A stretch of 11,257 nucleotides of DNA from the UHGV virus genome UHGV-0341487, one strand, 5' to 3'. The stretch is from a virus. Every line of letters begins with the position of its first letter. The stretch's first letter is position 1. Below the pieces are notes generated by a model. The model was given only the letters and a program-made list of their open reading frames with translations. It was not told the origin of the DNA and ran no database searches. Shown piece after piece: positions 2,218 to 11,257 of this stretch. A program made the position numbers and the translations under genes.

Positions 2218-2636
2218 GCCATCACCTCCTGAAAATTACCCTGATAGAACGCCAGCACACGCTGCATAGCTTCGCTCTTCCGGCACTCGCGACAGATTAT
2301 GTTCTGACGCCTGTCGTAGCGGCGTATTTCTCCGTCTGGTAATGACCAGATAAGGTCCGGATCAACCGCAGATGGTTTCTTCAGCTTTGCCCTTGAGAGC
2401 TTTTTACGGGTATTTTGCCAATCCTTACGCGCCTGTTCAGACGGGAATAACCCGTAACCAGAGTTGTATACATCGCCACTGGCAACCAGCTCTCTGGCCA
2501 GAACGCTCATCAGATATCTTGTTGCCCCAGTTTTAGCTTCCAGTTGTCGTAACGTCTCGCGTCCACTCTGGCGTACGAGTTCAAGAACCTGCCCTTTAAT
2601 TTTTTCCCGCTCTTCTTGTGTAAAAACTTTTGCCAC
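2214..2636 (-). CDS. Hypothetical protein (140 aa), possibly winged-helix-like N-terminus
   Basis: ORF-track ORF; GTG start at 2636 preceded by AGGAGG (2646..2641). Sits where lambdoid phages usually carry a helicase loader, but is too short and shows no ATPase motif. Confidence 0.5.
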   Translation of the reverse strand: MAKVFTQEEREKIKGQVLELVRQSGRETLRQLEAKTGATRYLMSVLARELVASGDVYNSGYGLFPSEQARKDWQNTRKKLSRAKLKKPSAVDPDLIWSLPDGEIRRYDRRQNIICRECRKSEAMQRVLAFYQGNFQEVMA

Positions 2637-2676
2637 AAGCCCTCCTGAAAATTACCTCATGACCAGAAATTAACAC

Positions 2677-3747
2677 TTACCCCCTGAAGCCCGGCGGAAT
2701 TTCGTTATCCGGTTCAGAAATATGATTCACACAACGCTGGTTGTTCGTGCTGCTTACCGGGAGCAACCAGGGGTTCTCAAAATTCCGGTCCGGTCCAAAA
2801 AACGTCGTCGCTCGCTGAACAAATTCCGTTCCCGTTTTCCCGGTAGCCGCCAAGTATCTTGCGTAACGCCTCACGCCATCCAGCATGGCCTCTGGTGGCA
2901 CCCCCTCGCGTAATCTGGCCTTCCAGGCACTGAAAGCGGATTTCTTCGGGTTTGCTCCGGCACGCAACGGGTACTCCCGCCAGACCTGTTCGAACACATC
3001 CGGATAATCCACTCGTCCCACAGACTGCCCGGTGCTTTCCGGGACTACCCGATCGGCTTCCCGCTGAATGGCGGAATCGGCTTCAGGCTGCTGCAGTTGG
3101 TGTGATTGCTCCGGCCTTGCGGTCATCACCTGCTGCACAGCGCCCGAATCGGCTTTCAGCGCATACGCTGAATCGGCTTCCGGTGTCGTGCCTGCTGGCT
3201 GACCAGGATTGACGGTCTGAACATCCCCTGCCTGGTTCGTGGCGTTTTTTACGCCATGGACCATAGTGTTTTGATCTTCTTGATCTGTATCTTTATCTGT
3301 ATCTTTATCTGTCGTGACTCGTCGTGACATGTGCGTGACATTTCGTGACGCGCCGTGACAATCGCCATTTTGTTCCCGCTTTCTTTCCCTCTCTCGCTGC
3401 GCCCTCTTGCGCTCTGCAGGAGATTTTGCGGTTTGCGAAATATTGCCGTTGTCCTCTTTAAGCACCTGGCGTTTTTCCCATCCAGTGATTAAATCACCAT
3501 CAAGTACCCGCCCCTGCATCGTCTGCAAAATTGAATCAATTACCTCTTCTGTCACGTCGAGCGCACTTGCCAAATCTTCTGTCGTGACATCAATGTGACC
3601 TCGCGTGACATTTCGTGACGCGCTCACCAGGAGGTGGATATACACTGCCATCACTGTTGCAATTGGCTGCCCTGACACCCTGGCAATTGTTCGCCACTTA
3701 GGGTCATTTGGCATGTCATGCCATAATCTGAGCCAGGCGTTAGCCAT
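2677..3747 (-). CDS. Phage replication initiator (lambda O-like functional analogue) with origin iterons inside its coding sequence
   Basis: ORF-track ORF 2677..3753; start moved to ATG at 3747..3745, 5 nt after GAGGTG. Position directly downstream of the cro-like/YdaT-like genes. Two clusters of CGTGAC iterons lie inside the gene and are mirrored in the protein as RNVTRGHIDVTT and RNVTHMSRRVTTDKDTDKDTD. Confidence 0.7.
   Translation of the reverse strand: MANAWLRLWHDMPNDPKWRTIARVSGQPIATVMAVYIHLLVSASRNVTRGHIDVTTEDLASALDVTEEVIDSILQTMQGRVLDGDLITGWEKRQVLKEDNGNISQTAKSPAERKRAQRERERKREQNGDCHGASRNVTHMSRRVTTDKDTDKDTDQEDQNTMVHGVKNATNQAGDVQTVNPGQPAGTTPEADSAYALKADSGAVQQVMTARPEQSHQLQQPEADSAIQREADRVVPESTGQSVGRVDYPDVFEQVWREYPLRAGANPKKSAFSAWKARLREGVPPEAMLDGVRRYARYLAATGKTGTEFVQRATTFFGPDRNFENPWLLPVSSTNNQRCVNHISEPDNEIPPGFRG
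3283..3359. repeat. Origin-like repeat block: two tandem 12-bp ATCTGTATCTTT units plus a third diverged unit (3307-3318) that overlaps the first of five CGTGAC iterons at about 10-bp spacing
   Basis: Seen in sequence: atctgtatcttt at 3283-3294 and 3295-3306; cgtgac at 3313, 3323, 3334, 3344, 3354. Helical-turn spacing puts the sites on one face of the DNA. Confidence 0.65.
3583..3623. repeat. Second iteron cluster (CGTGAC/TGTGAC, four copies at 10-11 bp spacing), with a 20-bp exact copy of an iteron pair from the first cluster
   Basis: cgtgacatttcgtgacgcgc occurs at 3334-3353 and again at 3604-3623; additional copies at 3583 and 3594; an inverted gtcacg at 3551. Confidence 0.6.
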
Positions 3748-3818
3748 ACTCACCTCTTTTGATACCGAATCTTTTTACTCACAAATTGCCGGAAGTGATC
3801 CGGTATGAATATTGCGAG

Positions 3819-4244
3819 TCAATGCACAGCCACAATATTTCCTGCAGGGCCACCACGATTCATCTGGTTGAAACCAGCGATCGCCACTGCGACAAAATCA
3901 TCAGCGTCTCTCACCAGTCGTTCCCGCGTCTCCACTAGTTCCCGAAAATAGGCTGAGCTATGACTGCGCATTCGGGCCACCAGCAGAGGTGGCATTGCTT
4001 TTTCGATAGCTGGTAACAACGCCTGAATTTTTTTAACCGCATCAGGGGTGTCTTTCTCCACCCAGCGGAAAATTTTCTGAGTATTGCGAGCTAGGGCTTC
4101 CGGATGGCTGTCGTCATACAGTTCCGGGAACGTCATTCCCAGCTCGAAATACGCTTTGGTAATTTTCGCAGCCGGTACTTTTTCGCCGTCCGGATGCGCC
4201 CAGGCATTCATCGCCATGCGGATATGTTCATGTTTGATTTTCAT
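3819..4244 (-). CDS. YdaT-like prophage protein (CII-position gene), 141 aa
   Basis: Begins MKIKHEHI and sits immediately downstream of the cro-like gene with an ATGA start/stop overlap, as ydaT follows ydaS in Rac. Family assignment is from memory of the YdaT N-terminus and gene position, not a search. Confidence 0.55.
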   Translation of the reverse strand: MKIKHEHIRMAMNAWAHPDGEKVPAAKITKAYFELGMTFPELYDDSHPEALARNTQKIFRWVEKDTPDAVKKIQALLPAIEKAMPPLLVARMRSHSSAYFRELVETRERLVRDADDFVAVAIAGFNQMNRGGPAGNIVAVH

Positions 4245-4468
4245 GAATCACTCTTCCTTTTGTCCCGGGTGGTATCCTTCTTTTTGTAAAGCTCTGGGTT
4301 CAAAGATAATTTTCCCTTGGAGTATGCAGCAGCTTCCGCAGCTCTCCCTTTCGGAACTATTTCACCGGGGCGCTTACGCCACATGTAAATAGCTTCGCGG
4401 GTTATCCCATAAAAATCAGCGACCCTCTGAACAGAGCCAAAAAACTGAACAAGTTCATCAACTCGCAT
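4241..4468 (-). CDS. Cro/DicC-like small HTH regulator (75 aa)
   Basis: Divergent from the repressor gene; FGSxxxxAxxxGIxxxxxYxWxxxxxxVPxGRA pattern resembles DicC/Cro-type proteins; basic C-terminal tail; SD GGAGAG 5 nt upstream of ATG at 4468. Confidence 0.7.
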   Translation of the reverse strand: MRVDELVQFFGSVQRVADFYGITREAIYMWRKRPGEIVPKGRAAEAAAYSKGKLSLNPELYKKKDTTRDKRKSDS

Positions 4469-4564
4469 TTTACTCTCCTAAAATCTAAGTATTTTTAGAT
4501 TACAGGATAATTTTTTTTAGGTCAATGCAATCTAAAATAATTTATATTCAACTCGCGGGAGAAA
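4469..4564. promoter_or_regulatory. Divergent immunity control region (OR-like) with two 20-bp operators
   Basis: Operator 1 at 4482-4501, aatctaa-gtattt-ttagatt, with perfect 7-bp inverted arms. Operator 2 at 4529-4548, aatctaa-aataat-ttatatt, with one arm mismatch. On the minus strand a TTGACC -35 and a -10 inside operator 1 could drive cro; exact promoter hexamers are inferred. Confidence 0.6.
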
Positions 4565-5212
4565 ATGATGGAAAGCCTTGGCATCAGGCTTAAGAAACTC
4601 AGAAAAGATAAGGGACTCACCCAAGTAGAACTGGGTAAGCTTTCAGGCGTGACTGGGGTTACTATAGGGTACTGGGAGAAAGATCTAAACGAACCCGGCA
4701 GCAAAGCTCTAAGTAAGTTAGCCCAGGCATTAGGAACTACTGAGTCCTATCTCCTGTATGGAGTATCGTCTCCTGAACTATCTTTTGTGCAGAGCAATCC
4801 AGGCACCAAGATCCCCTACTTTTCGTGGGGTGACGCGATTTCTTTCCTAATCTTAGAAGGAGAGAAAACAATGGGAAATGTCGATAGGATCACCACATTC
4901 TTTGATGTAGTGGAAGGTGATTTTGCCGTTTCAATGCCTGATGACACTATGCATAACCCCTCAGGGTCACCAAGTATCCCGGTTGGTGCCACTGTGATCC
5001 TAAGACCAGGAGAGAGTTATAAAAATGGCAGTATCGTCGCTGTAATAGTTCCAGATCCACTTACAAATGAACCGTCTATGACTATAAAAAAATTAGTTAT
5101 TGATGGAAAACTTGTGTATTTAAGCCCTCTCAATCCGCGCTATCAATCATCCTTGCTTACGCCAGAGTGTAAAATTGTTGCCGTAGCAAAAGGTGTGCAG
5201 TTCAACCTATAA
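4565..5212 (+). CDS. cI-type prophage repressor (HTH_XRE N-domain plus S24 LexA-like autopeptidase C-domain)
   Basis: N-terminal LTQVELGKLSGVTGVTIGYWE helix-turn-helix; C-terminal AVSMPDD (Ser nucleophile context) and TIKKLV (Lys) typical of the LexA/cI self-cleaving domain. The ATG at 4568 has better SD spacing than 4565, so the true start may be 4568. Confidence 0.85.
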   Translation: MMESLGIRLKKLRKDKGLTQVELGKLSGVTGVTIGYWEKDLNEPGSKALSKLAQALGTTESYLLYGVSSPELSFVQSNPGTKIPYFSWGDAISFLILEGEKTMGNVDRITTFFDVVEGDFAVSMPDDTMHNPSGSPSIPVGATVILRPGESYKNGSIVAVIVPDPLTNEPSMTIKKLVIDGKLVYLSPLNPRYQSSLLTPECKIVAVAKGVQFNL

Positions 5213-5233
5213 CCCTGCTATGTCCTTGAACTT

Positions 5234-5260
5234 AAGGTCGGTTATGCCGACCTTTTTTTT
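5234..5260 (+). terminator. Intrinsic terminator downstream of the repressor gene
   Basis: aaggtcgg-ttatg-ccgacctt stem-loop (8-bp stem) followed immediately by an 8-nt T run. Confidence 0.7.
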
Positions 5261-5310
5261 AAATTAATTTAGATTCCCCTTGACTATAAAACTAAATACT
5301 TTTAGATTTA
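5261..5310 (+). promoter_or_regulatory. pL-like early-left promoter with overlapping operator (OL)
   Basis: TTGACT at 5280-5285, 17-bp spacer, TAGATT at 5303-5308. Operator aaactaa-atactt-ttagatt at 5289-5308 is near-identical to OR operator 1; an extra TTAGATT half-site at 5269-5275. Confidence 0.55.
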
Positions 5311-5489
5311 TTGCATACCAACCCACCCCGCCCCATAGAACGCCGGGCAATACTTCGAGTTACCAGGCAGTGGTCAGGGGTTAAGTAGCCAGCCCGAGGC
5401 GTAAGAACATGACGGCAGGGTTCAACTTTAATAACTATGCAGCAGGTTTTTGTTCCGCTACCCCGGCGTTAAGGGGAAATGAGGTCAAC

Positions 5490-5645
5490 ATGGATACTAT
5501 CGATCTTGGCAACAACGAATCTCTGGTGTACGGCGTGTTTCCCAACCAGGACGGCACATTCACCGCGATGACGTATACCAAAAGCAAAACGTTTAAAACC
5601 GAAAATGGTGCCCGTCGCTGGCTGGAAAGAAACTCAGGTGAGTGA
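5490..5645 (+). CDS. ydfA: YdfA-like small protein (51 aa)
   Basis: ORF-track ORF 5409..5645 trimmed to ATG at 5490, 5 nt after GAGGT; 51 aa equals the YdfA length and it is the first gene of a ydfABC-dicF-dicB-ydfD-ordered operon. Symbol assigned by synteny and size from memory. The upstream ATG at 5409 is an alternative start. Confidence 0.5.
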   Translation: MDTIDLGNNESLVYGVFPNQDGTFTAMTYTKSKTFKTENGARRWLERNSGE

Positions 5646-5646
5646 T

Positions 5647-5775
5647 ATGGATTTCGACACAATCATGAAAAAGGCTTACGAAGAATACTTCGAAGGCCTT
5701 ACCGAAGGCGAAGAAGCTCTCAGCTTCAGTGAGTTTAAACAGGCGCTTTCCAGCTCGGCAAAATCTAACGGCTGA
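5647..5775 (+). CDS. ydfB: YdfB-like small protein (42 aa), not in ORF track
   Basis: Manual translation MDFDTIMKKAYEEYFEGLTEGEEALSFSEFKQALSSSAKSNG; ATG 1 nt after the upstream stop with AGGTGAG SD; size and position match ydfB. Confidence 0.5.
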   Translation: MDFDTIMKKAYEEYFEGLTEGEEALSFSEFKQALSSSAKSNG

Positions 5776-5804
5776 TAAGCGAAGCAGCACCGCGAGGAAT
5801 CAGT

Positions 5805-6023
5805 ATGCAGAAACGAGAACCCGTCATCATCGCGCCAGACTATACCGATGATGAACTTTATGAGTGGATGCGCCAGAAAATTAATGCAGCGCAGGATCTG
5901 AAATGGGCCAATGAAGCCAGGGCTAAGCAGGCTGAAAATCTGTCCGCTCTGGAGCAGGATATCACCAGGCTGGAAAAAGCAGCGGCATTAAGCATTGCCA
6001 GAATGATTACATACCAGCGTTAA
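5805..6023 (+). CDS. ydfC: YdfC-like protein (72 aa)
   Basis: ORF-track ORF with GAGGAA SD; 72 aa and position match ydfC of the dicB operon. Confidence 0.6.
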   Translation: MQKREPVIIAPDYTDDELYEWMRQKINAAQDLKWANEARAKQAENLSALEQDITRLEKAAALSIARMITYQR

Positions 6024-6363
6024 TAGCTAACCAACGAAGCTAAGGTTGGTAATTAAGGAGTTCTCCACGGGTGAGGTGGAGTGCGTGCGCCGGACACGGG
6101 TGAGCATCCGGCACTGACAGTTTACTGAAAGGATATTTCCATGAAAAGTCAGACCATAACGCGAAAGCGCACGGCGAGGTAGCTGGTTCATAGATAGCCT
6201 GTCGTTAAATTTTCGTCGACCGTGCGCTTCCGGTTGTGGCACTACACGAAATGGCGCGGCGGTAAGTATGGCGGGGTTATTCCTTCCCCGTTGAGGACAC
6301 CGGGTTGTCAGGTTGACCATACGCTTAAGTGACAACCCCGCTGCAACGCCCTCTGTTATCAAT

Positions 6364-6421
6364 TTTCTGGTGACGTTTGGCGGTATCAGTTTTACTCCGT
6401 GACTGCTCTGCCGCCCTTTTT
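6364..6421 (+). ncRNA. dicF: DicF small regulatory RNA (ftsZ-targeting antisense sRNA) with its own intrinsic terminator
   Basis: Sequence tttctggtgacgtttggcggtatcagttttactccgtgactgctctgccgcccttttt matches my recollection of E. coli DicF; ends in GC stem plus T run; located between ydfC and dicB exactly as in the Qin dicB operon. Confidence 0.8.
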
Positions 6422-6590
6422 AAAGTGAATTTTGTGATGCGGTGAATGCGGCTAAGCGCACGCGGAACAGTTAAAACCAAAAACAGTGTTATGGGTGGAT
6501 TCTCTGTATCCGGCGTTAATTGTTAACTGGTTAACGTCACCTGGAGGCACCAGGCACCGCATCACAAAACTCATTGTTGAGGGCGCGATA

Positions 6591-6779
6591 ATGAAAACGT
6601 TATTACCAAACGTTAATACGTCTGAAGGTTGTTTTGAAATTGGTGTCACTATCAGTAATCCTGTATTTACTGAAGATGCCATTAACAAAAGAAAACACGA
6701 ACGGGAGTTATTAAATAAAGTATGCATTGTTTCAATGCTGGCCCGTTTACGTTTGATGCCAAAAGGATGTGCACAATGA
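6591..6779 (+). CDS. dicB: DicB cell-division inhibitor (62 aa)
   Basis: C-terminal 62 aa of ORF-track ORF 6486..6779, MKTLLPNVNTSEGCFEIGVTISNPVFTEDAINKRKHERELLNKVCIVSMLARLRLMPKGCAQ, matches recalled DicB nearly residue for residue; GAGGG SD upstream of ATG 6591. Confidence 0.85.
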   Translation: MKTLLPNVNTSEGCFEIGVTISNPVFTEDAINKRKHERELLNKVCIVSMLARLRLMPKGCAQ

Positions 6780-6967
6780 ATCCAGTATTTGCACTTATTC
6801 TGACGGTTTTTCTTGTTTCCGGAGAGCCAGTTGATATTGCAGTCAGTGTTCACAGAACAATGCAGGAATGTATGGCAGCAGCAACCGAACAGAAAATTCC
6901 AGGCAACTGTTATCCGGTCGATAAAGTTATTCACCAGGATAATAACGAAATCCCGGCAGGTCTTTAA
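6776..6967 (+). CDS. ydfD: YdfD-like lysis/toxic protein (63 aa) with N-terminal hydrophobic segment
   Basis: Internal ATG of ORF-track ORF 6722..6967 overlaps the dicB stop (ATGA); MNPVFALILTVFLVSGEPVDIAVSVHRTMQECM matches recalled YdfD; same order as in Qin. Confidence 0.75.
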   Translation: MNPVFALILTVFLVSGEPVDIAVSVHRTMQECMAAATEQKIPGNCYPVDKVIHQDNNEIPAGL

Positions 6968-7060
6968 AACAGTTCCGTAATAAATATCCGGTTTCATTCT
7001 TATATGCCAGCAATGGCAGGGATTTGTTCATCCTTAAATCTGTCATGAGGTTAAAACAAA

Positions 7061-9532
7061 ATGAGTAAAGTCTTTATTTGCGCCGCTATTCCTGACGAAC
7101 TGGCAACAAGGGAAGAAGGCGCTGTGGCTGTAGCCACAGCCATTGAAGCTGGCGACGAACGCCGTGCTCGAGCAAAATTTCACTGGCAGTTCCTGGAACA
7201 TTATCCGGCTGCTCAGGACTGCGCTTATAAATTTATTGTCTGCGAGGATAAACCTGGCATACCCCGCCCTGCCCTCGATTCATGGGATGCTGAATATATG
7301 CAGGAAAACCGCTGGGATGAGGAGTCTGCTTCTTTTGTCCCGGTTGAGACTGAATCCGATCCGATGAACGTCACTTTTGACAAGCTGGCCCCTGAAGTAC
7401 AGAACGCTGTCATGGTTAAGTTCGACACATGTGAAAACATCACCGTTGATATGGTTATTAGCGCACAGGAATTGTTGCAGGAAGACATGGCAACATTCGA
7501 CGGACATATCGTTGAAGCGTTGATGAAAATGCCAGAAGTTAACGCCATGTATCCGGAGCTTAAGTTGCACGCCATTGGGTGGGTTAAGCATAAATGTATT
7601 CCTGGTGCTAAATGGCCCGAAATTCAGGCAGAGATGCGCATCTGGAAAAAACGTCGCGAAGGTGAACGCAAGGAAACCGGAAAATACACGTCTGTTGTTG
7701 ATCTCGCCCGCGCCAGAGCCAATCAACAGTACACTGAAAATTCAACAGGAAAAATCAGCCCGGTCATTGCTGCCATTCATCGCGAATACAAGCAGACATG
7801 GAAAACACTGGATGACGAACTGGCCTACGCTCTCTGGCCTGGTGATGTGGATGCCGGAAACATTGACGGCAGCATCCATCGCTGGGCAAAAAAAGAAGTT
7901 ATCGACAACGACCGCGAAGACTGGAAGCGTATCTCGGCATCAATGCGCAAACAGCCTGATGCCCTTCGCTACGACCGCCAAACTATTTTTGGCCTTGTCC
8001 GTGAGCGTCCGATCGACATTCACAAAGATCCCGTAGCACTGAACAAATATATCTGCGAATACCTGACGACAAAGGGCGTGTTTGAGAATGAAGAAACAGA
8101 CCTGGGCACTGTTGATGTTCTCCAGTCATCAGAAACACAAACTGATGCAGTGGAAACTGAGGTATCTGATATCCCAAAAAATGAAACCGCGCCGGAAGCT
8201 GAACCATCTGTAGAGCGTGAGGGGCCGTTCTATTTCCTCTTCGCAGATAAGGACGGAGAAAAATACGGTCGCGCAAACAAACTTTCTGGTCTGGATAAGG
8301 CACTGGCTGCTGGCGCCACTGAAATCACAAAAGAAGAATATTTTGCCCGAAAAAATGGCACATACACGGGCTTACCGCAAAATGTAGATACCGCTGAAGA
8401 TTCAGAACAACCAGAGCCGATAAAAGTTACCGCTGACGAAGTAAACAAAATTATGCAGGCAGCCAATATCAGCCAGCCTGACGCCGATAAGTTGCTTGCT
8501 GCATCACGTGGTGAATTTGTTGAAGGGATTAGTGACCCGAATGATCCGAAATGGGTTAAGGGGATCCAGACCCGCGATTCTGTGAACCAGAACCAGCATG
8601 AATCGGAACGGAACTACCAAAAAGCGGAACAAAACAGCACAAATGCGTTACAAAACGAGCCAGAAACGAAACAGCCTGAACCAGTGGCGCAACAGGAAGT
8701 GGAAAAAGTCTGCACCGCCTGCGGTCAGACCGGCGGCGGCAACTGCCCTGATTGTGGCGCGGTGATGGGCGACGCAACATACCAAGAAACATTCGATGAA
8801 GAGTATCAGGTTGAAGTTCAGGAAGATGATCCGGAGGAAATGGAAGGCGCTGAACATCCACACAAGGAGAACACTGGCGGCAATCAGCATCACAATAGCG
8901 ATAATGAAACTGGCGAGACGGCAGATCACCCAATTAAGGTGAACGGTCATCACGAAATCACATCCACCAGCAGGACGTGTGACCATCTAATGATCGACCT
9001 TGAAACCATGGGAAAAAATCCTGATGCCCCGATCATCTCAATAGGTGCAATATTTTTCGATCCGCAAACCGGAGATATGGGACCGGAATTTAGTAAGACT
9101 ATCGATCTGGAAACTGCTGGCGGAGTCATTGATCGGGACACCATTAAATGGTGGCTTAAGCAATCACGCGAAGCGCAATCTGCCATTATGACCGATGAAA
9201 TCCCGTTAGATGATGCACTGTTACAATTGCGGGAATTTATCGACGAAAACTCCGGTGAATTTTTTGTTCAGGTCTGGGGAAATGGAGCCAACTTCGACAA
9301 CACGATTTTGCGCCGTTCATACGAACGGCAGGGGATCCCCTGCCCGTGGCGTTACTACAACGATCGCGATGTACGCACAATCGTTGAGCTGGGGAAAGCC
9401 ATAGACTTCGATGCCAGAACGGCTATTCCATTCGAAGGTGAGCGCCATAATGCACTTGATGACGCTCGTTACCAGGCAAAATACGTTTCAGCTATCTGGC
9501 AAAAACTGATCCCGAGTCAGGCTGATTTTTAA
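7061..9532 (+). CDS. Large multidomain phage protein (823 aa): unrecognised N-terminal domain, acidic/Gln-rich linker with CxxC-x7-CxxC zinc ribbon, C-terminal DEDDh-type 3'-5' exonuclease domain
   Basis: Long ORF with GAGG SD. C-terminal about 180 aa (nt 8987-9529) carry MIDLETMG (Exo I, D-x-E), GNGANFDNT (Exo II) and HNALDDARYQAKY (Exo III, His plus Asp). Zinc ribbon CTACGQTGGGNCPDCG near nt 8709-8762. Occupies the slot between dicB/ydfD and xis/int. Confidence 0.85.
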   Translation: MSKVFICAAIPDELATREEGAVAVATAIEAGDERRARAKFHWQFLEHYPAAQDCAYKFIVCEDKPGIPRPALDSWDAEYMQENRWDEESASFVPVETESDPMNVTFDKLAPEVQNAVMVKFDTCENITVDMVISAQELLQEDMATFDGHIVEALMKMPEVNAMYPELKLHAIGWVKHKCIPGAKWPEIQAEMRIWKKRREGERKETGKYTSVVDLARARANQQYTENSTGKISPVIAAIHREYKQTWKTLDDELAYALWPGDVDAGNIDGSIHRWAKKEVIDNDREDWKRISASMRKQPDALRYDRQTIFGLVRERPIDIHKDPVALNKYICEYLTTKGVFENEETDLGTVDVLQSSETQTDAVETEVSDIPKNETAPEAEPSVEREGPFYFLFADKDGEKYGRANKLSGLDKALAAGATEITKEEYFARKNGTYTGLPQNVDTAEDSEQPEPIKVTADEVNKIMQAANISQPDADKLLAASRGEFVEGISDPNDPKWVKGIQTRDSVNQNQHESERNYQKAEQNSTNALQNEPETKQPEPVAQQEVEKVCTACGQTGGGNCPDCGAVMGDATYQETFDEEYQVEVQEDDPEEMEGAEHPHKENTGGNQHHNSDNETGETADHPIKVNGHHEITSTSRTCDHLMIDLETMGKNPDAPIISIGAIFFDPQTGDMGPEFSKTIDLETAGGVIDRDTIKWWLKQSREAQSAIMTDEIPLDDALLQLREFIDENSGEFFVQVWGNGANFDNTILRRSYERQGIPCPWRYYNDRDVRTIVELGKAIDFDARTAIPFEGERHNALDDARYQAKYVSAIWQKLIPSQADF

Positions 9533-9590
9533 TGTTCAACCCTAATTGCCGCTAACCGTATATAGTTAGCGGCGGTTATGAGATATAGCT

Positions 9591-9794
9591 ATGAGCAGCT
9601 TATTTTTAACCGAAGATGAATTGCTAATATTAACGGGCTGCAAATATGCAAGCCACCAGCGAAAATGGTTAATGGAAAACGGGCTTCCGTTCTATACCAA
9701 TCGTAGTGGCAAACCGATTGTCAGCCGGGATCTATTTACCTGCAATAAAACTTTACCACCACGCGAGGTAGAGCCGAATTTTGGTGCGATCTGA
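9591..9794 (+). CDS. xis: Excisionase-like protein (DUF4224-type small DNA-binding protein)
   Basis: 67-aa ORF immediately upstream of int; its stop overlaps the int start (ATGA at 9792-9796); LTEDELLILTGCKYASHQRKWL resembles the small proteins found upstream of lambdoid integrases (from memory). Confidence 0.7.
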   Translation: MSSLFLTEDELLILTGCKYASHQRKWLMENGLPFYTNRSGKPIVSRDLFTCNKTLPPREVEPNFGAI

Positions 9795-10819
9795 TGGGAA
9801 GACGAAGGAAAAATCCTGAACACGAAAAATTACCTCCAAATGTATACCCAAATAAATATAGTTATGTATGGAAACCAACATCCAGAGAATCTGTCACACT
9901 AACCGCCATCAAGGATGGTTTAGCTGCTTTATGGAAAAAGTATGAGGAAACTGTAAATAATCGCGATCGTGCAATGACATTCGGTCGCTTGTGGGAAAAA
10001 TTCCTCGCCAGCGCCTATTACAGTGACCTTAGTCCAAGAACACAAAAAGATTATCTGCAACATCAAAAAAAGTTGCTTGCCGTATTCGGTAAGGTACCAG
10101 CGGATTCCATAAAACCAGAACACATCCGTCGATACATGGACAAAAGAGGGGAGCAGAGTAAAACGCAAGCCAACCATGAAAAAAGCAGTATGTCCCGTGT
10201 TTACAGTTGGGGGTATGAGCGAGGGTACGTGAAGGCTAACCCATGTGCAGGTGTAAGTAAATTCAAGGCCAAAAACCGCGAACGATATGTAACCGACAAA
10301 GAATACCAGGCAGTATTAAGCGTTGCACCTCTTCCTGTTTTTATCGCAATGGAAATTGCCTATCTGTGTGCAGCGAGGGTTTCCGATGTGTTATCGCTGA
10401 AATGGGAACAGATTGGAAACGACGGGATATTCATCCAGCAAGGGAAAACCGGAAAAAAACAGATAAAAGCATGGAGTCCACGATTACAGGCAGCGATCGA
10501 AAAAGCAAAACAGTTGCCAAAATCTGCCTATGTGATCAGCAATCAATACGGCAACCGATATATGTACAAAGGCTTTAACGAAATGTGGGTAGATGCAAGA
10601 AATCGTGCTGGAAAAATTTCAGGTATTTTAACCGACTTCACCTTTCATGATCTGAAGGCGAAAGGAATTTCAGACTATGAAGGAAGCAGCCGGGATAAGC
10701 AACTTTTCTCTGGTCACAAAACCGAAGGGCAAGTGCTAATCTATGACAGGAAGGTTAAAGTTTCACCAACACTTGATGTCCCGTTACCTGAAAATATTCC
10801 AAGAAAATATTCCAAGTAA
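9794..10819 (+). CDS. int: Tyrosine site-specific integrase, lambda Int family
   Basis: N-terminal MGRRRKNPEHEKLPPNVY parallels lambda Int MGRRRSHERRDLPPNLY; catalytic-region residues are alignable (AARVSDV Arg, QQGKTG Lys, FHDLK, LFSGH, LIYDRK Tyr). Adjacent to a tRNA gene. Confidence 0.9.
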   Translation: MGRRRKNPEHEKLPPNVYPNKYSYVWKPTSRESVTLTAIKDGLAALWKKYEETVNNRDRAMTFGRLWEKFLASAYYSDLSPRTQKDYLQHQKKLLAVFGKVPADSIKPEHIRRYMDKRGEQSKTQANHEKSSMSRVYSWGYERGYVKANPCAGVSKFKAKNRERYVTDKEYQAVLSVAPLPVFIAMEIAYLCAARVSDVLSLKWEQIGNDGIFIQQGKTGKKQIKAWSPRLQAAIEKAKQLPKSAYVISNQYGNRYMYKGFNEMWVDARNRAGKISGILTDFTFHDLKAKGISDYEGSSRDKQLFSGHKTEGQVLIYDRKVKVSPTLDVPLPENIPRKYSK

Positions 10820-10828
10820 TTCCAAGTG
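10791..10828. repeat. Tandem direct repeats (AAAATATTCCAAG x2 plus partial ATTCCAAG) spanning the int stop codon; candidate recombination arm-type or accessory-protein sites
   Basis: 13-mer at 10791-10803 and 10804-10816, partial copy 10819-10826; lies between the int C-terminus and the tRNA junction. Confidence 0.5.
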
Positions 10829-10871
10829 TGATTTTTGTCACTGACTTAATGATGTGTAAGTGATTGAATTT

Positions 10872-10961
10872 TGGCGGAGAGAGGGGGATTTGAACCCCCG
10901 GTGGAGTTGCCCCCACTCCGGTTTTCGAGACCGGTCCGTTCAGCCGCTCCGGCATCTCTCC
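10872..10961 (-). tRNA. serU: tRNA-Ser (anticodon CGA), class II tRNA with long variable arm and encoded CCA
   Basis: Reverse complement reads GGAGAGATGCCGGAGCGGCTGAACGGACCGGTCTCGAAAACCGGAGTGGGGGCAACTCCACCGGGGGTTCAAATCCCCCTCTCTCCGCCA: 7-bp acceptor stem GGAGAGA/TCTCTCC, anticodon loop CUCGAAA, TpsiC arm GGGGGTTCAAATCCCCC. Confidence 0.93.
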
Positions 10962-11054
10962 GTTCAGATGGTTGCCATGATGCCAGGAAATTTGGCATTT
11001 TAACAGTCCCTGTCCGTGCAATTTTGTTCAAGTGACGAGTTTGCGAGCAAAGCG

Positions 11055-11257
11055 ATGATAAAGTGGCCCTGGAAAACGAATGAAGCTGGCCGGGATATGG
11101 CGCTGCCATGGGATGACGCGCTGACGATCCCTGTTCTGGCTAATCTTAAGCCGGATGAACAAGCGAAACTGGTTCAGCTGGCGGATCGTTTTTTACAGCA
11201 AAAACGCCTGGTTCCACTGCGGGGTTTCGAACTCGATCCCCTGAAAAACGCGCGCAT
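11055..11257 (+). CDS. mtfA: MtfA-like protein (Mlc titration factor A / DgsA anti-repressor), N-terminal part; continues beyond window end
   Basis: ATG at 11055 opens a frame reading [67 protein letters not shown], which matches the recalled MtfA N-terminus (MIKWPWK...[16 protein letters not shown]); no stop before the window end. Confidence 0.85.

What the first reader, a model, noticed from the sequence alone, without database searches (positions are those of the whole stretch)
10646..10657. Integrase carries Lys where the second catalytic Arg of the tyrosine-recombinase motif is expected (HDLK instead of HxLR)
Against lambda Int, the conserved Arg (AARVSDV), Lys (QQGKTG), His (LFSGH) and Tyr (LIYDRK) are all present, but the box II motif reads FHDLKA with codon AAG at 10655-10657. 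This Arg is nearly invariant in the family, and AGG to AAG is a single transition, so the prophage could be excision-impaired (domesticated). That would fit its retention of host-affecting cargo (DicF, DicB, YdfD). Alternatively this lineage tolerates Lys.
Basis: partly seen in the sequence, partly recalled or inferred. Interest (0 to 1): 0.5.

Follow-up and report, generated by a model that had tools for sequence, protein, structure and literature searches.

The report
Prophage integrase with natural catalytic lysine
The lysine in this prophage integrase is real, but it is the normal, conserved residue of a large subfamily of lambda-type integrases whose members demonstrably move phages in and out of chromosomes, so it is not a sign of a crippled, domesticated prophage.

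Summary
The 341-aa integrase (9794-10819, +) reads F-H-D-L-K at 10643-10657, with AAG at 10655-10657, and K288 aligns with lambda Int R311. The other six active-site residues are present: R195, D198, K218, H285, H308 and Y317.

The main interpretation, a single inactivating transition that leaves the prophage excision-impaired, is not supported.
- Lys is invariant in all 120 closest 90%-identity cluster representatives, which come from several enterobacterial genera.
- Among the top 150 50%-identity representatives, 95 have Lys and 40 have Arg.
- Both Lys codons (AAG and AAA) are used among homologues.
- dN/dS against the O157 Sakai Sp14 orthologue is 0.045.
- The recombination module looks complete: an overlapping DUF4224 excisionase-like gene, a 62-bp serU duplication with the crossover in the anticodon stem-loop, and five ATTCCAAG arm-type repeats confined to the att arms.
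- Sequenced phages mEp390, Evi and Dobby carry Lys-type integrases.
- Asadulghani et al. 2009 detected excised circles of Sakai Sp14 (the orthologue) and Sp4 (a 55%-identical Lys-type integrase).
- Gibb et al. 2010 report Lys at this position in 0.5% of natural family members and find Cre R292K active.

Ordinary and already explained; low interest.

The parts
9591..9794 (+). 67-aa DUF4224 protein, the putative recombination directionality factor (excisionase). Its stop codon overlaps the int start codon by 1 nt.
   Evidence: ORF. Pfam DUF4224, E 1.9e-15. PHROG excisionase families phrog_1266, 4764 and 8896. The same gene sits upstream of Lys-type integrases in mEp390, BUCT709 and Dobby.
9794..10819 (+). 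Integrase gene, 341 aa. It is a lambda-type three-domain tyrosine integrase with arm-binding, core-binding and catalytic domains.
   Evidence: ORF. PF00589 scores 44.7 bits against a cut-off of 27.1, plus Phage_int_M and SAM-like domains. phmmer matches lambda Int over residues 1-313. AF2 mean pLDDT is 84.3. Foldseek's best match is full-length lambda Int.
10376..10387 (+). Box I: Arg I (R195, 10376-10378) and D198 (10385-10387).
   Evidence: Aligned with lambda R212 and D215. R195 and D198 are invariant in 121 of 121 sequences.
10445..10447 (+). Catalytic Lys of the beta-hairpin (K218).
   Evidence: Aligned with lambda K235. Invariant in 121 of 121 sequences.
10646..10657 (+). Box II, H285-D-L-K288. 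This is the finding: Lys (AAG, 10655-10657) stands at the Arg II position.
   Evidence: K is invariant in 121 of 121 close sequences.
10715..10744 (+). His III (H308, 10715-10717) and the tyrosine nucleophile (Y317, 10742-10744).
   Evidence: Aligned with lambda H333 and Y342. H is present in 120 of 121 and Y in 121 of 121 sequences.
10795..10826 (+). Three direct WATTCCAAG repeats, candidates for arm-type Int-binding sites. They overlap the last int codons and lie 45-77 bp from the att core. Two further copies lie on the other prophage arm, outside the window.
   Evidence: 3 matches against 0.29 expected, with 0 of 200 shuffles reaching 3. TRF finds a 13-bp unit x2.1. In the 49.9-kb locus L008 the 8-mer occurs only 5 times, all within about 140 bp of the att cores. 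The copies on the far arm are conserved islands in the otherwise diverged Sakai attL.
10872..10933 (.). att identity segment: the 62-bp 3' part of serU that is duplicated at the other prophage end. The crossover lies within 10915-10933, the anticodon stem-loop (anticodon at 10925-10927).
   Evidence: 31-bp exact repeat. Three-way comparison of K-12 attB, attL and attR. Anticodon position from ARAGORN.
10872..10961 (-). tRNA-Ser(CGA) serU. It is reconstituted at attR with a phage-supplied 3' part that carries a compensatory G-C pair in the variable arm.
   Evidence: ARAGORN. Rfam tRNA. The two differences from K-12 pair with each other at tRNA positions 48 and 59.

Best explanation
This is an intact, functional lambda-type (heterobivalent) tyrosine integrase. 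It belongs to a large, old subfamily in which Lys is the normal residue at the Arg II position (box II consensus F-H-D-[LI]-K-A-K-G-[IV]-S-D).

Shown here: Lys is fixed and selected across the clade. All other catalytic residues, the three-domain fold, the upstream DUF4224 excisionase-like gene, the att duplication and the arm-type repeats are present.

Shown by others: prophages with the orthologous integrase (Sp14) and a paralogous one (Sp4) excise as circles in E. coli O157 Sakai. The engineered equivalent, Cre R292K, recombines in vivo and in vitro.

Inferred mechanism:
- The N-terminal domain binds the ATTCCAAG arm sites.
- The core and catalytic domains bind the anticodon stem-loop of serU.
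- Y317 attacks the scissile phosphate.
- The K288 ammonium group takes the place of the Arg II guanidinium in neutralising a non-bridging phosphate oxygen.
- Strand exchange occurs within ACTCCGGTTTTCGAGACCG.
- The phage-borne 62-bp copy of the tRNA 3' part restores serU.
- The DUF4224 protein directs excision.
For: Position:
- K288 corresponds to lambda R311 by sequence.
- The model's best structural match is full-length lambda Int.

Clade-wide Lys:
- 120 of 120 closest 90%-identity cluster representatives have K and keep R195, D198, K218, H285 and Y317. They are named from Escherichia, Salmonella, Klebsiella, Citrobacter, Dickeya, Pectobacterium, Sodalis, Hamiltonella, Gilliamella and others.
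- Among the top 150 50%-identity representatives, 95 have K and 40 have R.
- A rough NJ tree infers R at the root, only 2 changes, and one pure-K clade holding 72 of 80 K sequences.

Selection:
- Lys codons AAG and AAA both occur, while synonymous sites are saturated between distant homologues.
- dN/dS against Sakai Sp14 int is 0.045, from 50 synonymous and 10 non-synonymous differences.

Module integrity:
- A DUF4224/excisionase gene overlaps int.
- The 62-bp att duplication has its crossover in the anticodon stem-loop, and K-12 has an empty attB.
- The arm-type repeats are restricted to the att arms and are conserved as islands in diverged sequence.
- The C-terminus ...NIPxKYSK is conserved in homologues at 60-85% identity.

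Mobility:
- The gene is in 1148 of 5426 complete E. coli genomes.
- The exact protein is listed in 9698 collection blocks. It is always next to DUF4224 and mtfA in the ten places shown, but is linked to two different exonuclease genes upstream.
- A 99.7%-identical prophage is about 40 kb with complete modules.
- Sequenced phages mEp390 (attP annotated), Evi and Dobby carry K-type integrases.

Experiment in the literature:
- Circular excised Sp14 and Sp4 were detected after mitomycin C and their attP junctions sequenced (PMC2669165).
- Sp14 is the serU prophage and its ECs_2773 protein carries HDLK.
- Sp4 ECs_1055 carries HDIK and is 55.5% identical to the window protein.

Chemistry:
- Arg II is 99.1% R and 0.5% K in natural family members.
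- Cre R292K is active in vivo and in vitro, and vaccinia topoisomerase R223K keeps about 10% activity (PMC2943603).
Against: - No Lys-type integrase has been assayed biochemically in any paper I could find.
- Circular Sp14 was 'significantly lower' than for other prophages and was seen only after mitomycin C. The authors tied this to regional replication driven by Sp15.
- Those authors also judged the Sp4 and Sp14 Xis proteins probably non-functional.
- Cre R292K accumulates covalent intermediate, which indicates a ligation defect. Lys may therefore carry a catalytic cost.
- NCBI's pipeline labels the identical gene 'frameshifted' in two genomes. The ORF is nevertheless full-length relative to homologues.
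- The activity of this particular copy in its own host was not and cannot be tested here.
Confidence: 0.85

Rival explanations
1. One reading: K288 is a recent loss-of-function transition (AGG to AAG). It inactivates or cripples the integrase, so the prophage is locked in place and kept for its cargo (DicF, DicB, YdfD).
For: Arg II is 99.1% conserved across tyrosine recombinases. Circular Sp14 was scarce in O157 Sakai. PGAP labels the gene 'frameshifted'.
Against: Lys is invariant in 120 of 120 close clusters and in 95 diverse 50%-identity clusters, and is encoded by both codons. dN/dS is 0.045. A dead gene would not keep six other catalytic residues, an RDF gene, arm sites and att sites intact across genera. 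Excision of Sp14 and Sp4 was detected experimentally. Sequenced phages carry the same residue.
Confidence: 0.03
2. The Lys-type integrase is functional but intrinsically attenuated or kinetically different from Arg-type enzymes, for example through slower religation and a longer-lived covalent intermediate. This would give low excision frequencies as a lineage trait, possibly offset by co-evolved residues such as Cys at the lambda T209 position.
For: [quoted passage not shown] Circular Sp14 was low and was absent without mitomycin C. K-group sequences mostly have C192 (88%) where R-group relatives have Thr (95%).
Against: There are no kinetic data for any natural Lys-type integrase. The authors explain low Sp14 excision by induction only through Sp15 regional replication and by a doubtful Xis. 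The C192 co-variation follows one or two phylogenetic events and has exceptions such as P0235, P0158 and P0249. The wide spread of the clade argues against a serious handicap.
Confidence: 0.1
3. The protein is no longer a recombinase. It would be a tyrosine-recombinase-fold DNA-binding regulator, as in SPbeta MrpR/YopR or phi3T SroF.
For: Those proteins appear as weak structural matches (ranks 29-42), and they also depart from the catalytic signature.
Against: Here the Tyr nucleophile, Arg I, Lys, His II and His III are invariant. The gene sits at the prophage end next to att and an RDF gene. The best structural match by far is lambda Int. The prophage has its own CI/Cro-type regulators.
Confidence: 0.01

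Closest known systems
Integrase of E. coli O157:H7 Sakai prophage Sp14 (ECs_2773; equivalent to the serU prophage of EDL933)
   Same: It is the orthologue, about 94% identical in DNA. It has the same serU target, the same HDLK box II, the same DUF4224 gene upstream, the same exonuclease-DicB neighbourhood and the same three ATTCCAAG repeats. Excised circles with a sequenced attP were reported (PMC2669165).
   Different: It is one codon shorter (340 aa) and has 10 non-synonymous differences. The Sp14 prophage is defective in several morphogenesis genes according to the paper. The near-identical relative of the window prophage looks complete.
Bacteriophage lambda Int (PDB 1z1b, 1z1g, 5j0n)
   Same: Both share the three-domain heterobivalent architecture. 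Arg I, Asp, Lys, His II, His III and Tyr are aligned. Both have an attP of about 250 bp with arm-type repeats (three tandem copies on the int-proximal arm, as with P'1-P'3) and a small RDF gene upstream that overlaps int.
   Different: Identity is only about 19-24%. Lys replaces R311, and Cys replaces T209. The target is a tRNA anticodon loop rather than attB between gal and bio. The RDF is DUF4224 rather than lambda Xis.
Engineered Arg II-to-Lys mutants: Cre R292K, vaccinia topoisomerase IB R223K, XerCD equivalents
   Same: They carry the same substitution at the same catalytic position. They show that Lys can support cleavage and recombination (PMC2943603).
   Different: They are single mutations in Arg-adapted backgrounds and have a ligation defect. 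Here Lys is the naturally selected state in a co-evolved protein, and no kinetic data exist for it.
CTnDOT IntDOT and the IntDes subgroup (tyrosine recombinases with a non-canonical pentad)
   Same: They are precedents for active or conserved family members that lack a canonical catalytic Arg (PMC8138268).
   Different: In those cases Arg I is missing and, in IntDOT, is replaced functionally by an Arg from elsewhere in the sequence. Here Arg II is replaced in situ by Lys. No clade-specific relocated Arg stands out in the catalytic domain; the only candidate is R230, present in 82% of K-type against 22% of R-type sequences.

Membership tests
Tyrosine recombinase / phage integrase superfamily (Pfam PF00589) | Significant match to the family profile above the curated threshold | tested here: met
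   PF00589 scores 44.7 bits against a gathering score of 27.1, E 1.7e-11. phrog_1 integrase, E 6.4e-54.
Tyrosine recombinase / phage integrase superfamily (Pfam PF00589) | Catalytic-domain fold shared with solved family members | tested here: met
   The AF2 model (pLDDT 84.3) matches lambda Int, Tn1549 Int, XerA/D/H, IntI and Cre at probability 1.00.
Tyrosine recombinase / phage integrase superfamily (Pfam PF00589) | Tyrosine nucleophile plus Arg I, beta-hairpin Lys, His II and His/Trp III at the aligned positions | tested here: met
   R195, K218, H285, H308 and Y317 align with lambda R212, K235, H308, H333 and Y342. They are invariant or nearly so in 121 sequences.
Tyrosine recombinase / phage integrase superfamily (Pfam PF00589) | Arg at the Arg II position. 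This is a canonical signature found in 99.1% of members. It is characteristic rather than obligatory, because 0.5% of natural members have Lys. | tested here: not met
   K288 (AAG, 10655-10657) stands at the lambda R311 position. Frequencies are from Gibb et al. 2010. Membership rests on homology, fold and the nucleophile, so this departure marks a subfamily and is not grounds for exclusion.
Lambda-type heterobivalent (arm-binding) integrases | N-terminal arm-binding domain in addition to the core-binding and catalytic domains | tested here: met
   phmmer and Foldseek alignments to full-length lambda Int start at residue 1. The model has three beta-strands plus a helix in residues 17-59.
Lambda-type heterobivalent (arm-binding) integrases | Repeated arm-type sites flanking the core in attP, distinct from the core sequence | tested here: inconclusive
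   Five ATTCCAAG copies are confined to both att arms and are conserved in diverged Sakai attL. Binding was not tested.
Lambda-type heterobivalent (arm-binding) integrases | Cognate recombination directionality factor encoded next to int | tested here: inconclusive
   A DUF4224 / PHROG 'excisionase' gene overlaps int. Asadulghani et al. doubted its DNA-binding capacity. Its function was not assayed.
Lambda-type heterobivalent (arm-binding) integrases | Catalyses site-specific integration and excision between att sites | not testable with these tools
   Indirect evidence: precise attL/attR with an empty attB in K-12, and excised circles of orthologous Sp14 and paralogous Sp4 in the literature.

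The most novel reading that the evidence does not exclude
The HD[LI]K-AKG-[IV]SD integrases form a coherent, ancient subfamily: at least 95 clusters at 50% identity, spanning several enterobacterial genera and Pseudomonas phage Dobby, and usually paired with a DUF4224 gene. Their phosphoryl-transfer chemistry may differ measurably from canonical Arg II enzymes, for example in the cleavage/ligation balance, with help from co-varying residues such as Cys at the lambda T209 position. No paper I could search describes this subfamily or has assayed a member biochemically.
Probability: 0.25. Interest if true: 0.4.

Novelty: already known. Interest (0 to 1): 0.15.

Why it matters
The practical value is as a caution for annotation. 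A missing 'invariant' catalytic Arg in a tyrosine recombinase does not by itself mean a dead enzyme or a domesticated prophage. This serU-targeting integrase is present in about a fifth of complete E. coli genomes, including the O157 effector-carrying prophage Sp14, and should be treated as potentially mobile. For enzymologists, the clade is a natural, co-evolved Arg II-to-Lys background. It could be compared with the engineered Cre R292K and topoisomerase R223K mutants to ask how the ligation defect of Lys is tolerated or compensated.

Tried and rejected
1. The phage record ON470583.1 (vB_EcoS-689R5) has a 100% identical Int. It is a 'partial genome' that includes host mtfA, asnT and a second integrase, so it is a prophage region and not evidence of excision.
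2. I suspected from memory that phiCTX Int has Lys. Dobby, a Citexvirus, has HDLKRRG, but a tblastn search with its Int did not retrieve phiCTX, so I make no claim about phiCTX.
3. Two literature searches for 'serU' mostly matched 'serum'. I established that Sp14 is the serU prophage from the Sakai record instead.
4. Nunes-Duby et al. 1998 (tried as PMC147275) is not held. A search for the motif strings found nothing relevant. The Smyshlyaev et al. 2021 classification does not mention an Arg II-to-Lys group.
5. I looked for a relocated, clade-specific Arg as in IntDOT. Only R230 and two core-binding-domain positions (R112, R143) are enriched in the K group, and none is invariant. Model coordinates are not exposed, so distances to the active site could not be measured.
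6. I looked for an allele lacking one 13-bp repeat (predicted tail ...SNSKCDFCH) to explain PGAP's 'frameshifted' label. None is among the 269 retrieved proteins, so the reason for the label remains unexplained.
7. NCBIfam has no specific model; it gives only weak Xer hits below their cut-offs.

Full report
**Observation**

The window carries an ORF at 9794-10819 (+) of 341 aa. At 10646-10657 the sequence is CAT GAT CTG AAG, which gives H285-D-L-K288. Pfam places the protein in Phage_integrase (44.7 bits against a cut-off of 27.1), with the central and SAM-like N-terminal domains. phmmer against PDB sequences aligns it from residue 1 to 313 with lambda Int and puts 'tfhdlkakg' opposite 'tfhelrsls'. 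K288 is therefore the counterpart of lambda R311, and H285 of H308. MAFFT gives the same register.

An AlphaFold model built on 54 homologues has mean pLDDT 84.3. Its best PDB match is full-length lambda Int (1z1b_A, E 4.9e-15, 343 columns). R195, D198, K218, H308 and Y317 occupy the other catalytic positions.

**Is Lys strain-specific or lineage-wide?**

- All 120 best 90%-identity cluster representatives have Lys at this column, and also R195, D198, K218, H285 and Y317. They are 55-100% identical to the query. Sources name them from Escherichia coli, E. albertii, Salmonella, Klebsiella, Citrobacter, Dickeya, Pectobacterium, Sodalis, Hamiltonella, Gilliamella and others.
- An exhaustive HMMER search of 50%-identity representatives found 267 proteins at E <= 1e-30. 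Among the top 150, which go down to about 32% identity, 95 have Lys and 40 have Arg.
- A rough NJ tree rooted on lambda Int infers Arg at the root. It needs only two changes and contains one pure-Lys clade with 72 of the 80 full-length Lys sequences.
- Homologues from phage records (mEp390, Evi, Salmonella 118970_sal3, Klebsiella Kp4885-3, BUCT709) at 48-61% identity all read FHD[LI]KAKGISD. They use both AAG and AAA.
- Against the O157 Sakai orthologue there are 50 synonymous and 10 non-synonymous differences, giving dN/dS 0.045.

This is the signature of a selected residue, not of a recent lesion.

**Is the recombination module intact?**

Excisionase-like gene. A 67-aa DUF4224 protein (9591-9794) overlaps the int start by one base. 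It matches PHROG excisionase families. The same pairing is seen in mEp390, BUCT709 and Dobby.

tRNA and att sites.
- tRNA-Ser(CGA) lies 52 bp downstream of int on the minus strand.
- In E. coli AMSCJX02 the prophage is 99.7% identical to window 2225-11075. It is about 40 kb and has head, tail, lysis, Q, replication and CI/Cro genes.
- A 31-bp exact repeat of the serU 3' end marks the far end of that prophage.
- Comparison with the empty site in K-12 shows a 62-bp shared segment with two mismatches. attL carries the host version of both mismatches and attR the phage version. The crossover therefore lies in the last 19 bp, ACTCCGGTTTTCGAGACCG (10915-10933), which is the anticodon stem-loop.
- The two phage-specific bases pair with each other in the variable arm. 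They turn an A-U pair into G-C, so the reconstituted tRNA is intact.

Arm-type repeats.
- Three WATTCCAAG repeats lie at 10795-10826, against 0.29 expected; 0 of 200 shuffles reached three.
- In the 49.9-kb locus L008 the 8-mer occurs five times on either strand, all within about 140 bp of the two att cores.
- The two copies on the far arm survive as conserved islands in the otherwise strongly diverged Sakai attL.
- This layout is that of a lambda-like attP with arm-type sites.

C-terminus. The protein's tail...NIPxKYSK, overlaps these repeats and is conserved in homologues at 60-85% identity. The ORF is therefore full-length, despite NCBI's 'frameshifted' label on the identical gene.

**Evidence of activity**

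- The gene is in 1148 of 5426 complete E. coli genomes.
- The exact protein is listed in 9698 blocks of the assembly collection. In the ten places shown it sits next to DUF4224 and mtfA, but it is joined to two different exonuclease genes upstream. That is the expected picture for a module circulating among mosaic lambdoid phages.
- mEp390 is a complete sequenced lambdoid phage with an annotated attP and a Lys-type Int. Evi and the Pseudomonas phage Dobby (HDLKRRG, with DUF4224) also have one.
- Most directly, Asadulghani et al. 2009 detected circular, excised Sp4 and Sp14 in mitomycin-treated O157 Sakai and sequenced the attP junctions (PMC2669165).
- I verified that Sp14 is the prophage between yodB and serU. 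Its integrase ECs_2773 is the 340-aa HDLK orthologue.
- Sp4's integrase ECs_1055 is a 55.5%-identical HDIK protein.

**Chemistry**

Gibb et al. 2010 report Arg II as 99.1% R and 0.5% K among natural family members. They found Cre R292K active in vivo and in vitro, although it accumulates covalent intermediate. Vaccinia topoisomerase R223K keeps about 10% activity (PMC2943603). Lys can therefore do the job.

The inferred mechanism is the standard one, with the K288 ammonium group contacting the non-bridging oxygen of the scissile phosphate. Within the family, Lys-type proteins mostly carry Cys where lambda has T209 (88%), while Arg-type relatives carry Thr (95%). This follows one or two evolutionary events and has exceptions, so I record it without interpreting it.

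**Caveats**

- No natural Lys-type integrase has been assayed biochemically in the literature I could search.
- Sp14 circles were scarce and were seen only after mitomycin C, and the authors doubted the Xis.
- The activity of this particular copy is inferred, not shown.
- A milder rival is that Lys makes the enzyme slower. It cannot be excluded, and I give it about 0.1.

**Verdict**

The residue is real, and it is unusual for tyrosine recombinases as a whole. In this lineage it is the ordinary, selected state of a working integrase. The gene, its prophage type and the existence of natural Lys variants at this position are all already on record.

Noticed in passing
window 11019-11257 (start of mtfA, right edge): The last ~180 bp of the window do not look like E. 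coli. Window 11019-11257 is 98.3% identical to Enterobacter hormaechei B17-3 mtfA and only about 69% identical to E. coli mtfA. Window 2225-11075 is 99.7% identical to an E. coli serU prophage with its flank. The two similarities overlap in a 57-bp stretch shared by both genera. None of ten contigs with the identical Int has this mtfA. It is either a natural inter-genus recombinant or an assembly chimera.
   Followed up: partly
window 9794-10844; L008 46899-47949; L007 3001-4048: NCBI's pipeline annotates the identical (L008) and orthologous (EDL933) integrase as a 'frameshifted' pseudogene that extends 25 nt past the stop codon. However, the ORF is full-length, its KYSK C-terminus is conserved in diverged homologues, and the Sakai record lists it as intact. 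I found no reference allele that would explain the label.
   Followed up: partly
window 10790-10827: A 13-bp tandem repeat (GAAAATATTCCAA x2.1) plus a third ATTCCAAG overlaps the last five int codons and the stop codon. The candidate arm-type Int-binding sites are therefore embedded in the integrase's own coding sequence. This may explain the conserved ...NIPxKYSK tail.
   Followed up: partly
window 10903 and 10914 (tRNA-Ser positions 59 and 48): The phage-supplied 3' part of serU differs from the K-12 copy at two bases. These pair with each other in the variable arm (A-U to G-C), so the change is compensatory and the lysogen's tRNA stays folded.
   Followed up: yes
window 10367-10369 (C192): Lys-type integrases mostly have Cys three residues before Arg I (box I 'LCAAR'). 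Arg-type relatives and lambda Int have Thr there ('TGxR'). The figures are C in 88% of the K group and T in 95% of the R group, with exceptions.
   Followed up: partly
window 6365-6416 (+), 6486-6967: DicF sRNA is confirmed by Rfam (76.7 bits). DicB and a YdfD/DUF1482 ORF follow it, as in Qin-type early regions. This is standard lambdoid cargo.
   Followed up: yes
window 7061-9532 (+): This is an 823-aa exonuclease (YdfE_N/YdfE_C plus an Rv2179c-like 3'-5' exonuclease domain). In other genomes the identical integrase is joined to a different, 813-aa Exonuc_VIII-type gene. This shows a mosaic junction just upstream of the xis-int module.
   Followed up: no
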